Below are positions 55,107 to 61,246 of a DNA stretch of 64,000 nt, one piece after another. The position numbers were made by a program, and so were the translations under genes. Every line of letters starts with the position of its first letter. The first letter of the stretch is position 1. The notes beneath the pieces were generated by a model. It worked only from the letters and a program-made list of their open reading frames with translations, was not told the DNA's origin and searched no databases. Source of the stretch: Escherichia coli O157:H7 (GTDB lineage: Bacteria; Pseudomonadota; Gammaproteobacteria; Enterobacterales; Enterobacteriaceae); NCBI RefSeq assembly GCF_013167455.1, contig NZ_CP038328.1, one strand, 5' to 3'.

Positions 55107-56161
<1,055 letters not shown>

Positions 56162-56205
56162 TTACTTGCGGTAGAAAAATAAAATTCGGCGCAATTCTAA
56201 CAGGG

Positions 56206-56223
56206 AAAGCAAACGTTTGCGAG
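56206..56223. promoter_or_regulatory. PurR operator (pur box) of purMN
   Basis: aaaGCAAACGTTTGCgag, palindromic core matching the pur box consensus, about 65 bp upstream of purM start. Confidence 0.7.
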
Positions 56224-56419
56224 ACTGCTTTACACAACCTTTTTGCACGTCTTTTCCCCAGGCGCGCGGCGAAAGAAGACTTGTGCCAGGGCAAAGGTTA
56301 GTTTTCGGATGGAATAATCTTCTTTCATAACCATTTGAATATAAAATAACTTTATCTCAAACCGTTATCATTTTGACTAAAGTCAACGAAAATAATATTG
56401 CCGCCTTGAAGAAAGGAGG

Positions 56420-56440
56420 TATAATCCGTCGATTTTTTTT
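56420..56440 (+). promoter_or_regulatory. upp promoter -10 and initially transcribed T-tract (UTP-sensitive reiterative transcription)
   Basis: TATAAT at 56420..56425 followed by GATTTTTTTTG (8 T run). Confidence 0.65.
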
Positions 56441-56467
56441 GTGGCTGCCCCTCAAAGGAGAAAGAGT

Positions 56468-57094
56468 ATGAAGATCGTGGAAGTCAAACACCCACTCGTC
56501 AAACACAAGCTGGGACTGATGCGTGAGCAAGATATCAGCACCAAGCGCTTTCGCGAACTCGCTTCCGAAGTGGGTAGCCTGCTGACTTACGAAGCGACCG
56601 CCGACCTCGAAACGGAAAAAGTAACTATCGAAGGCTGGAACGGCCCGGTAGAAATCGACCAGATCAAAGGTAAGAAAATTACCGTTGTGCCAATTCTGCG
56701 TGCGGGTCTGGGGATGATGGACGGTGTGCTGGAAAACGTTCCGAGCGCGCGCATCAGCGTTGTCGGTATGTACCGTAATGAAGAAACGCTGGAGCCGGTA
56801 CCGTACTTCCAGAAACTGGTTTCTAACATCGATGAGCGTATGGCGCTGATCGTTGACCCAATGCTGGCAACCGGTGGTTCCGTTATTGCGACCATCGACC
56901 TGCTGAAAAAAGCGGGCTGCAGCAGCATCAAAGTTCTGGTGCTGGTAGCTGCGCCAGAAGGTATCGCTGCGCTGGAAAAAGCGCACCCGGACGTCGAACT
57001 GTATACCGCATCGATTGATCAGGGACTGAACGAGCACGGATACATTATTCCGGGCCTCGGCGATGCCGGTGACAAAATCTTTGGTACGAAATAA
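56468..57094 (+). CDS. upp: Uracil phosphoribosyltransferase
   Basis: ORF track frame 56441..57094; start chosen at [14 protein letters not shown] (208 aa). Confidence 0.94.
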
Positions 57095-57110
57095 AGAATA
57101 AAAATAATTA

Positions 57111-57140
57111 AAGCCGACTTTAAGAGTCGGCTTTTTTTTG
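57111..57140 (+). terminator. Rho-independent terminator after upp
   Basis: aagccgactt taag agtcggcttttttttg. Confidence 0.75.
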
Positions 57141-57179
57141 AGTAAAGCGCCTATAACACATAATACAGAGGATAATACT

Positions 57180-58469
57180 ATGACGCGCCGTGCTATCGGG
57201 GTGAGTGAAAGACCGCCACTTTTACAGACAATCCCGCTTAGTTTGCAACATTTGTTCGCCATGTTTGGTGCAACCGTCCTGGTGCCCGTCTTATTTCATA
57301 TTAACCCGGCGACTGTACTGTTATTTAACGGTATTGGAACGCTGCTGTATCTCTTCATCTGTAAAGGGAAAATTCCGGCTTATCTTGGTTCCAGCTTTGC
57401 CTTTATTTCACCGGTATTGTTACTGTTGCCGTTAGGGTATGAAGTCGCGCTGGGCGGCTTTATTATGTGCGGCGTGCTGTTCTGCCTGGTTTCTTTTATC
57501 GTGAAGAAAGCGGGGACCGGCTGGCTGGACGTGCTGTTTCCACCTGCGGCAATGGGCGCAATCGTTGCCGTCATCGGTCTGGAGCTGGCGGGCGTAGCTG
57601 CCGGTATGGCGGGTTTACTCCCGGCTGAAGGGCAAACGCCAGACTCCAAAACCATCATCATCTCTATTACCACCCTGGCGGTCACGGTTTTAGGTTCCGT
57701 GCTGTTCCGTGGTTTCCTGGCAATTATCCCGATTTTAATTGGCGTGCTGGTGGGGTACGCGCTCTCTTTCGCAATGGGAATTGTCGATACCACGCCGATT
57801 ATTAATGCTCACTGGTTTGCGCTGCCAACCCTCTATACGCCGCGCTTCGAGTGGTTTGCCATTCTGACTATTCTGCCAGCGGCGTTAGTGGTTATTGCCG
57901 AACACGTAGGGCACCTGGTAGTAACGGCTAATATCGTCAAAAAAGATCTGCTGCGCGATCCAGGTCTGCACCGTTCGATGTTTGCTAACGGCTTGTCGAC
58001 CGTGATCTCCGGCTTCTTTGGCTCCACGCCAAACACCACCTACGGGGAAAACATTGGCGTGATGGCGATCACCCGTGTTTACAGTACCTGGGTTATCGGC
58101 GGGGCGGCGATTTTCGCTATCCTGCTTTCCTGCGTCGGTAAACTGGCTGCCGCTATCCAGATGATCCCATTGCCGGTGATGGGCGGCGTTTCGCTGCTGC
58201 TTTATGGTGTCATCGGTGCTTCCGGTATTCGTGTTTTGATCGAATCGAAAGTGGATTACAACAAAGCACAGAACCTGATCCTGACTTCCGTGATTTTGAT
58301 CATCGGCGTCAGTGGCGCGAAGGTAAACATTGGCGCGGCGGAGCTGAAAGGTATGGCGCTGGCGACCATCGTCGGTATCGGCTTAAGTTTGATTTTCAAA
58401 CTGATTAGTGTGCTGCGCCCTGAAGAAGTGGTGCTGGACGCAGAAGACGCGGATATAACAGACAAATAA
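57180..58469 (+). CDS. uraA: Uracil:H+ symporter (NCS2 family)
   Basis: ORF track frame 57138..58469; start chosen at [16 protein letters not shown] (429 aa); multi-pass. Confidence 0.93.
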
Positions 58470-59782: not shown

Positions 59783-61246
59783 TTACATCTTGGTATAAGG
59801 CTTAAAGCGTTCCTGCAGCTGGCGCAACTGGTCGATGCGCGCATCGTAACGCGCTTGTTGCAGGCTGCCTAATTTCACCTGCGAACTGGCGCTACTCAAC
59901 AGCGAAATGGCCTGATCGAGTCGTCCGGCGAGCGCATAACCTTCTGCTCGCGCAGCCAGCTCCTGATCGCGGTTATTTAGCGCGGCTTCCGCCTGTGCCA
60001 GCAAATCCCAGCCGTTGCTGTCATCTTTATTATTAAAGGTGTAGCGATTAAGAATATTGGCCGCTTCTTGTGGTTGACCGCCTTGTAGATAAGCGTTCGC
60101 CAGGTTGAGCTGCAACACAGGATTGGTGCGCAAATCGCGGGCATTTTTCAGACGATTGATCGCCTCATTGGCTTTGTTTTGCCCAAGATCGATATCAGTA
60201 GCCAGATCGAGATACCATGCGTTGCCAGGTTCTGCCGCCAGTAACGGTTGCAGCGTTTTTCGCGCCTCGTCGTATTTATTGGCTTCCATCGCCTGTAAAG
60301 CACGACCATATTGCGCCGCTCGTTGCTGACGAACGTTTCCTTTCGCCCATTCATCCAGCAAATCACTGGTGAGCTGGTTACGTCCGGAATTATACATCCC
60401 CAGTGTGCGCGCTTTCGCCAGATAGAAATCTTCCGACGACTGCACCACCATCGGGCGCATCTGATTAGCACGGTTGCGGGCATCTGCCAGACGACTTTCC
60501 GGCAACGGGTGAGTCAGTAAAATTTCCGGCGGGCGCGAGGAGTAACGCGCCTGATCGAGTAATTTTTCGAGGAAGGTTGGCATCGCCTGCGGATCGAATC
60601 CCGAGCGTTGCAGCACCTGAATACCAATGCGGTCCGCTTCCTGTTCATTTTGCTGGGTGAAACTGATCATCCCCTGACGCGTTCCCGCCAGTGTACCGGT
60701 CAGCGCCGCCATCCCCGCCTGCGGACTGGCCATCGCCAGTAAAATAGAACCTAACGCGCCGACCCAGGTCAGCGGCGCGTTGCGCTGCTGATCTTCCATC
60801 GCTCGCGCCAGGTGACGTTGGGTGACGTGGGAGATTTCGTGCGCCATAACTGAAGCCAGTTGACTTTCGTTATCGGAATAACGGAACAGGGCAGAGTGCA
60901 GCACCACGTTGCCGCCAAAGAAAGCAAAGGCGTTAATTTCGTCGTTGTTGATCAGAAAGAAATGAAACGGTGTCTTAACCGAATTGGCATGCGAAACCAG
61001 ACGCATCCCCAGCGAATTAATATATTGCGTTAACAGCGGGTCATTAATTAACGGCGCGCTGCCGCGTAGCTGGCGGACATAATAGTCGCCCATCTGCATT
61101 TCCTGACCAATGGAAAGCGTGCTTCCTGCGGAGGTTCCCATATCCGGCAAGGTGTCTGCGCTGTCGGCAAATGCCGGGGCTACCTGACCAATGGTCATAG
61201 CAGCAATGAGGGTTGCAACCAGGTTTTTTTTCAACTGCCTGAACAT
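59783..61246 (-). CDS. bepA: Periplasmic M48 metalloprotease/chaperone with TPR domain
   Basis: 487 aa ORF; signal peptide; HExxH motif ([12 protein letters not shown]); C-terminal TPR repeats. Confidence 0.92.

What the first reader, a model, noticed from the sequence alone, without database searches (positions are those of the whole stretch)
56420..56440. upp initially transcribed T8 tract (reiterative transcription signature)
A TATAAT -10 is followed 7 to 8 bp later by GATTTTTTTTG. A U-tract in the initially transcribed region is the known mechanism for UTP-sensitive control of upp-uraA through reiterative transcription and start-site switching.
Basis: partly seen in the sequence, partly recalled or inferred. 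Interest (0 to 1): 0.25.

Follow-up and report, generated by a model that had tools for sequence, protein, structure and literature searches.

The report
Known upp promoter UTP-sensing T8 tract

Summary
TATAAT lies at 56420-56425, five bases follow (CCGTC), then GATTTTTTTTG at 56431-41, 27 nt upstream of the upp ATG (56468). The window is E. coli chromosome (purN-purM <> upp-uraA-hda). The promoter-to-ATG sequence is identical to K-12 MG1655. GATTTTTTTTG is the string that the literature gives as the upp-uraA initially transcribed region controlled by UTP-dependent reiterative transcription with start-site switching (Tu & Turnbough 1997; Cheng et al. 2001).

My own tests agree with an initiation-linked function. 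In 75 of 78 Enterobacterales species sampled, a perfect TATAAT is followed after exactly 7 nt by a T6-T9 tract upstream of upp. That composite occurs nowhere else in 1.34 Mb of the same DNA. The distance from the tract to the ATG varies (25-102 nt) and the leader beyond the tract is poorly conserved. The leader has no significant RNA structure, no Rfam match and no terminator hairpin.

Minor additions:
- E. coli genomes carry natural tract-length alleles: T8 in 4,737, T7 in 439, T9 in 19, T6 in 4.
- Vibrios have only T3 at the same spacing.
- A strongly conserved hairpin plus T8 lies between upp and uraA.

Interest is low.

The parts
56398..56403 (+). -35-like hexamer TTGCCG of the upp promoter, 16-nt spacer to the -10
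   Evidence: Consensus scan. In the cross-species profile, T at -22 (69/72) and G at -20 (70/72) relative to the -10 start are conserved.
56420..56425 (+). -10 hexamer TATAAT (perfect consensus)
   Evidence: Invariant (2.0 bits at all six positions) in 72 aligned Enterobacterales species.
56426..56430 (+). Discriminator CCGTC between the -10 and the start sites
   Evidence: Its length is invariant at 5 nt and its sequence follows C-C/T-N-G-C across species.
56431..56432 (+). Alternative start nucleotides G (6th base after the -10; productive start at low UTP) and A (7th; start favoured at high UTP that enters reiterative transcription)
   Evidence: GA is present in 69 of 74 species. The G6/A7 assignment comes from Tu & Turnbough 1997 as I recall its abstract; the paper is not held. 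The sequence and the start-site switching are corroborated.
56433..56440 (+). T8 tract (A8 on the template strand), the slippage-prone homopolymer where UMP is added repetitively
   Evidence: T6-T9 sits at the same position in 75 of 78 Enterobacterales species. Within E. coli the alleles are T8 4,737, T7 439, T9 19, T6 4 and T10 0.
56441..56467 (+). Remaining 5' leader with Shine-Dalgarno AAGGAG (56455-56460); the first base after the tract is G
   Evidence: G follows the tract in 61 of 74 species and conservation then falls to 0.04-0.7 bits. No structure beyond shuffles, z=+0.62. No Rfam match.
56468..57094 (+). upp, uracil phosphoribosyltransferase (the regulated gene)
   Evidence: ORF; RefSeq annotation of the identical O157:H7 region.
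57110..57139 (+). Hairpin AAAGCCGACT-tta-AGTCGGCTTT plus T-run (T8 at 57132-57139) in the upp-uraA spacer; terminator-like and internal to the operon
   Evidence: Fold -15.2 kcal/mol, z=-4.21. Present in 59 of 64 Enterobacterales loci with enough downstream sequence.
57180..58469 (+). uraA, uracil permease (second gene of the operon)
   Evidence: uraA lies directly downstream of upp in 61 of 64 Enterobacterales loci with enough downstream sequence.

Best explanation
This is the sigma-70 promoter and initially transcribed region of the E. coli upp-uraA pyrimidine-salvage operon. It needs no repressor protein, because RNA polymerase itself senses UTP. The polymerase can start at either of two adjacent purines, G (56431, 6th base after the -10) or A (56432, 7th). 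When UTP is high, starts at A are favoured. The short A-U-U-U transcript pairs only weakly with the A-tract of the template and slips backwards, so UMP is added again and again (AUUUUn). These transcripts are released without ever reaching upp. When UTP is low, starts at G are favoured. These transcripts largely escape slippage and are elongated normally, so uracil phosphoribosyltransferase and the uracil permease are made only when pyrimidines are scarce. Shown here: the exact sequence and geometry, its identity to the experimentally studied K-12 promoter, the gene context, and strong conservation of the -10/5-nt/GA/long-T-tract unit across the order. Taken from the literature and not tested here: the two start sites, the UTP dependence and the AUUUUn products.
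For: The E. coli identity and the upp-uraA annotation come. The region is identical to MG1655 from -35 to the ATG and to a BW25113 primer. PMC7039003 quotes 'upp-uraA (5'-GATTTTTTTTG)' and says that reiterative RNA synthesis at these promoters does not switch back to canonical transcription. PMC12709180 describes TSS switching stimulated by excess UTP at codBA and upp, with non-productive release. The titles of Tu & Turnbough 1997 and Cheng et al. 2001 appear in held reference lists. For conservation, 74 of 78 Enterobacterales species (33 genera) have TATAAT + exactly 7 nt + T6-9 within 160 nt of the upp ATG, and a 75th (Brenneria) has it 184 nt upstream. There are zero occurrences elsewhere in 1.34 Mb. 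The tract keeps a fixed distance to the -10 but a variable distance to the ATG (25-37 nt, 101-102 nt in Pectobacterium), as expected for an initiation element. Information content is 2.0 bits across TATAAT and 1.7-1.8 bits at G and A, then falls to 0.04-0.7 bits in the leader.
Against: Nothing in the sequence contradicts it. The limits are these. The primary papers and the Turnbough reviews are not in the held library, so the G6/A7 designation, the AUUUUn ladder and the tract-shortening results rest on my recollection of their abstracts plus secondary citations. I found no independent genome-wide TSS table containing the expected MG1655 positions 2,620,909 and 2,620,908; the supplement text held is truncated. 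Start sites and UTP dependence cannot be tested computationally.
Confidence: 0.95

Rival explanations
1. The U-rich 5' end of the mRNA acts mainly after transcription, for example as a ribosomal protein S1-binding translational enhancer or a stability element, rather than at initiation.
For: [quoted passage not shown] From general knowledge, U-rich leaders can enhance translation.
Against: Across 74 species the tract keeps an invariant 7-nt distance to the -10, while its distance to the ATG ranges from 25 to 102 nt. The two bases before the tract are conserved as start purines (GA in 69 of 74). Published work attributes regulation to reiterative transcription. A secondary translational effect is not excluded.
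Confidence: 0.03
2. The T-run is the tail of a leader terminator or attenuator, or part of a riboswitch-like leader structure.
For: T8 runs are typical terminator tails, and the other T8 nearby (57132-57139) is one.
Against: No terminator-like hairpin lies in 56100-56520. The leader folds no better than shuffles (z=+0.62). Rfam has no match in the promoter or leader even at E<=1. The tract begins only 2 nt after the first start site, which is too early for any upstream RNA hairpin.
Confidence: 0.01
3. Reiterative transcription operates as at pyrBI, from a single start site and directly dependent on UTP, without start-site switching.
For: Some relatives lack the G/A pair. E. albertii has TA, Photorhabdus and Aeromonadales have GG, and Vibrio has GG-TTT. 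Switching therefore may not be universal.
Against: For this exact sequence the literature states start-site switching (title of Tu & Turnbough 1997). GA is conserved in 69 of 74 Enterobacterales species.
Confidence: 0.03
4. It is a chance AT-rich run in an intergenic region next to a chance TATAAT.
For: A T8 alone is not rarer than chance in this window.
Against: The composite is expected 0.01 times. It is conserved in 75 of 78 species at a fixed spacing and absent elsewhere in 1.34 Mb.
Confidence: 0.005

Closest known systems
E. coli K-12 upp(-uraA) promoter: UTP-sensitive start-site selection coupled to UTP-dependent reiterative transcription (Tu & Turnbough 1997, J Bacteriol 179:6665; Cheng, Dylla & Turnbough 2001, J Bacteriol 183:221)
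   Same: It is the same locus and the same sequence from -35 to the ATG, including GATTTTTTTTG.
   Different: Nothing in the element differs. The window is an O157:H7-like strain rather than K-12.
E. coli codBA promoter (Qi & Turnbough 1995), initially transcribed region ATTTTTTG
   Same: It uses the same logic: start-site switching plus non-productive reiterative UMP addition in a T tract.
   Different: It controls a different operon, has a shorter tract (T6) and a different start-site pair. It is not in this window.
E. coli pyrBI (AATTTG) and carAB P1 (GTTTG) promoters
   Same: UTP-dependent reiterative transcription occurs in a T tract just after the start.
   Different: The tract is only T3. 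The UTP dependence is direct, without start-site switching. The Vibrio (GGTTTG) and Pasteurellaceae (GATTTG...) upp promoters seen look more like this class.
B. subtilis pyrG (CTP-sensitive reiterative G addition)
   Same: It senses a nucleotide pool through slippage at initiation.
   Different: The reiteration is productive: the extra G's allow antitermination. The nucleotide differs and the outcome is the opposite.

Membership tests
upp/codBA-class UTP-sensitive reiterative-transcription promoters | A sigma-70 promoter whose -10 places the start sites immediately before a homopolymeric T tract | tested here: met
   TTGCCG-16-TATAAT scores 10 of 12. G and A are the 6th and 7th bases after the -10 and the tract starts at the 8th.
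upp/codBA-class UTP-sensitive reiterative-transcription promoters | A long T tract (at least 3, here 8) in the non-template strand of the initially transcribed region | tested here: met
   T8 at 56433-56440. T6-T9 is conserved in 75 of 78 Enterobacterales species.
upp/codBA-class UTP-sensitive reiterative-transcription promoters | Two adjacent alternative start nucleotides with different fates (G6 productive, A7 reiterative) | not testable with these tools
   The GA dinucleotide is present and conserved in 69 of 74 species. Actual start-site usage needs 5'-end mapping. It is published for this sequence, with details recalled from the abstracts.
upp/codBA-class UTP-sensitive reiterative-transcription promoters | Sequence identity to the experimentally characterised K-12 element | tested here: met
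   Identical to MG1655 from -35 to the ATG, to a BW25113 primer and to the published string GATTTTTTTTG.
upp/codBA-class UTP-sensitive reiterative-transcription promoters | UTP-dependent production of released AUUUUn transcripts and pyrimidine-repressible expression | not testable with these tools
   This is biochemical and genetic evidence from the literature. The primary papers are not held.
upp/codBA-class UTP-sensitive reiterative-transcription promoters | It controls a pyrimidine metabolism or salvage gene | tested here: met
   The downstream genes are upp and uraA.
Leader terminator / attenuator (e.g. the pyrBI attenuator) | A G+C-rich hairpin directly preceding the U-run | tested here: not met
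   No terminator-like site in 56100-56520. Leader fold z=+0.62. No Rfam hit in the promoter or leader.

The most novel reading that the evidence does not exclude
The promoter is textbook, but its tract length is not fixed in nature. E. coli genomes carry T6 (4, all from pigs), T7 (439, on at least two haplotypes and including the type strain ATCC 11775), T8 (4,737) and T9 (19, mostly O157:H7). The E. albertii type strain has replaced the productive G start with T. Published tract-shortening mutants change the regulatory range, so these could be slippage-generated natural alleles that set lineage-specific pyrimidine-salvage levels (and 5-fluorouracil sensitivity). Separately, the order-wide conserved hairpin plus T8 between upp and uraA could be a second, nucleotide-sensitive checkpoint inside the operon rather than a plain partial terminator.
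Probability: 0.15. Interest if true: 0.35.

Novelty: already known. Interest (0 to 1): 0.08.

Why it matters
It matters mainly as a positive control. A reader working from raw sequence alone correctly recognised one of the classic protein-free, RNA-polymerase-based nucleotide sensors, and the tools confirm it to the base. The comparative data gathered here add a small amount. The -10/5-nt/GA/T7-9 unit is under tight purifying selection across 33 enterobacterial genera. Tract length varies naturally within E. coli. Vibrionaceae and Pasteurellaceae keep the spacing but have only a T3 tract directly after the start purines. These points could guide experiments on how tract length tunes the response, but they do not change the understanding of the mechanism.

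Tried and rejected
- **Primary papers and reviews.** I tried to read PMC179593, PMC94869, PMC2415746 and PMC3078970. None is held, so mechanistic details beyond what state rest on my memory of the abstracts.
- **Genome-wide TSS data.** I looked for the expected MG1655 positions in the supplements of Cappable-seq (PMC4782308), Kim et al. 2012 (PMC3415461) and the 2025 NAR reiterative-initiation paper. PMC4288677 is not held. Nothing was found. My first look-up used positions off by one for A7, and the held supplement text is truncated, so this is uninformative rather than negative.
- **Leader terminator, attenuator or riboswitch.** Rejected.
- **Translational-enhancer role as the main function.** Rejected on the fixed distance to the -10 against the variable distance to the ATG.
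- **Chance.** Rejected.
- **Rfam hits at 57076-57141.** The sub-threshold hits (Trp_leader, STnc240 and others) all sit on the upp-uraA hairpin and score far below their gathering thresholds. I treat them as generic terminator look-alikes.
- **Internal hairpin in the literature.** A search for a known upp-uraA internal terminator returned nothing relevant.
- **My own error.** I first placed the upp ATG at 56469. It is at 56468.

Full report
**1. What is in the sequence**

Reading 56100-56800 gives, on the + strand:
- TATAAT at 56420-56425
- CCGTC at 56426-56430
- G at 56431 and A at 56432
- eight T's at 56433-56440
- G at 56441
- AAGGAG at 56455-56460
- the ATG of a 208-codon ORF at 56468

The consensus scan finds one sigma-70-like promoter in 56100-56520, and it is this one: TTGCCG (56398-56403), a 16-nt spacer, then TATAAT, matching 10 of 12 positions. 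A T8 alone is unremarkable, with 3 in the window against 7.1 expected. The composite TATAAT-N5-GATTTTTTTTG is expected 0.01 times and occurs once.

**2. Where the window comes from**

The 371 nt around the site match 5,424 of 5,426 complete E. coli genomes and are 100% identical to O157:H7 records. RefSeq annotation of an identical record gives ppk1, purN and purM on one strand and upp, uraA and hda on the other. K-12 MG1655 is identical from the -35 to the ATG. There G and A are at 2,620,909 and 2,620,908 on the minus strand. A BW25113 knockout primer printed in PMC11200800 is identical to window 56418-56467.

**3. What is known**

PMC7039003 lists the slippage-prone initially transcribed regions of E. 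coli as pyrBI (AATTTG), codBA (ATTTTTTG) and 'upp-uraA (5'-GATTTTTTTTG)'. It cites Tu & Turnbough 1997 and notes that once reiterative transcription starts at these promoters it does not return to canonical synthesis. [quoted passage not shown] The two primary papers are cited in several held reference lists but are not held themselves:
[quoted passage not shown] '

From my memory of their abstracts:
- The starts are called G6 and A7, counted from the -10.
- High UTP favours A7, whose transcripts become AUUUUn and are released.
- Low UTP favours G6, whose transcripts are elongated.
- Shortening the tract from 7 to 3 T's progressively abolishes regulation.

The geometry in the window fits that numbering exactly.

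**4. Independent tests run here**

(a) Structure. The leader from G6 to +70 folds no better than shuffles (z=+0.62). No terminator-like hairpin precedes the tract. Rfam has no hit in the promoter or leader at E<=1. An attenuator or riboswitch reading is therefore not supported.

(b) Conservation within E. coli. The 73-nt core (56396-56468) is exactly conserved with T8 in 4,737 of 5,423 genomes. Exact matches to otherwise identical queries with other tract lengths number:

| Tract length | Genomes | Note |
|---|---|---|
| T6 | 4 | all from pigs |
| T7 | 439 | includes type strain ATCC 11775 |
| T8 | 4,737 | dominant allele |
| T9 | 19 | mostly O157:H7 |
| T10 | 0 | |

An alignment of variants shows that the T7 change is a clean one-base contraction of the tract. 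It occurs on at least two flanking haplotypes.

(c) Conservation across species. One DNA-pattern scan of species-representative genomes, using the Upp N-terminus [13 protein letters not shown], returned 120 loci.
- Of 78 Enterobacterales species, 74 (33 genera) have a perfect TATAAT, then exactly 7 nt, then T6-T9 within 160 nt of the upp ATG. The tract lengths are T7 in 32, T8 in 33, T9 in 7 and T6 in 2.
- The two bases before the tract are GA in 69 of the 74.
- Brenneria has the same unit 184 nt upstream.
- That composite occurs 75 times in 1.34 Mb of the same DNA (both strands), and all 75 are upp promoters.
- Information content is 2.0 bits at every TATAAT position and 1.7-1.8 bits at G and A. 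The base after the tract is G in 61 of 74. The leader then drops to 0.04-0.7 bits.
- The tract keeps a fixed distance to the -10, but its end lies 25-37 nt from the ATG, and 101-102 nt in Pectobacterium.

This is the pattern expected of an element that acts at initiation, not at translation.

(d) Outside the order the spacing is kept but the tract changes:
- Vibrio has TATAAT-N5-GG/AG-TTT.
- Pasteurellaceae have TAGAAT-N5-GA/AA-TTT-G followed by a further T-run.
- Aeromonadales have TATCAT or TAGCAT, then tccgc, then GA or GG, then T7. Oceanisphaera has T5.

**5. Mechanism and rivals**

The best explanation is the published one (confidence 0.95): protein-free sensing of UTP by RNA polymerase, through start-site choice between G and A, followed by slippage in the A-tract of the template. 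The rivals are each contradicted by a test above:
- post-transcriptional role of the U-rich leader (0.03)
- leader terminator or attenuator (0.01)
- pyrBI-like single-start reiteration (0.03)
- chance (<0.01)

**6. Comparison and novelty**

This is not just a member of the family. It is the founding example itself, in another E. coli strain. Every sequence-level defining feature was tested and met. The two biochemical features (start-site usage and UTP-dependent AUUUUn products) cannot be tested with these tools, but they are published for this exact sequence. Novelty: already known. The modest additions are the order-wide conservation statistics, the natural tract-length alleles and the E. 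albertii G-to-T variant. Whether those are already published I could not determine from the held library.

**7. What did not work**

The primary papers and reviews were not readable. The genome-wide TSS tables held as text did not contain the expected positions and are truncated. A search for a described upp-uraA internal terminator found nothing relevant.

**Verdict:** observation confirmed, interpretation supported, already known, low interest.

Noticed in passing
window 57110-57139 (upp-uraA spacer): The hairpin AAAGCCGACT-tta-AGTCGGCTTT followed by a T-run (T8 at 57132-57139) looks like a strong intrinsic terminator (-15.2 kcal/mol, z=-4.2) inside what is described as a bicistronic operon. 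The stem core GCCGAC/GTCGGC plus the T-run is nearly invariant in 59 of 64 Enterobacterales loci with enough downstream sequence, from Escherichia to Providencia, Yersinia and Dickeya. The loop and flanks vary, and there are only a few compensatory changes. The held literature gave no description of it.
   Followed up: partly
5,424 E. coli genomes, position equivalent to window 56433-56440: There is natural length polymorphism of the promoter T tract: T8 in 4,737 genomes, T7 in 439 (including type strain ATCC 11775, on at least two flanking haplotypes), T9 in 19 (mostly O157:H7, possibly homopolymer sequencing error), T6 in 4 (all pig isolates) and T10 in 0.
   Followed up: partly
L012 (Escherichia albertii NBRC 107761), upstream of upp: The promoter reads TATAATCCGTCTATTTTTTTTG. 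The G that serves as the productive low-UTP start in E. coli is a T here, which might alter or remove start-site switching. Only one genome was seen.
   Followed up: no
L032, L034 (Pectobacterium) and L037 (Brenneria), upp leader: The promoter and T tract are intact, but a G+C-rich insertion of about 70 nt or more, with hairpins and a second small hairpin+T6 just before the Shine-Dalgarno sequence, lengthens the leader to about 110-190 nt. It may be a repeat-element insertion or an added attenuator.
   Followed up: no
window 56207-56222: The palindrome AAGCAAACGTTTGCGA matches the PurR operator consensus ACGCAAACGTTTGCGT (recalled from memory) at 14 of 16 positions. It lies 64-79 nt upstream of the divergent purM start (GTG at 56143). 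Similar aaacgtttgc motifs appear upstream of upp in the Aeromonas, Vibrio and Plesiomonas loci. This is presumably the known purMN operator.
   Followed up: no
window 56411-56430 and the equivalent positions in 72 species: Bases outside the canonical promoter elements are also nearly invariant. These are A at -8 and -7 and G at -2 relative to the -10 start (72 of 72), and a discriminator pattern C-C/T-N-G-C. They could bear on start-site placement or stringent control. This was not examined.
   Followed up: no
window 61224-61231: The third T8 on the + strand is an A8 run on the - strand within bepA codons 6-8 (K-K-N), a slippage-prone homopolymer in coding sequence.
   Followed up: no
Vibrio loci (e.g. 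L006, L017, L036): In all 14 Vibrio loci with enough sequence, uraA is not downstream of upp, unlike Enterobacterales, Pasteurellales and Aeromonadales. Their upp promoters carry only a T3 tract at the conserved spacing.
   Followed up: partly
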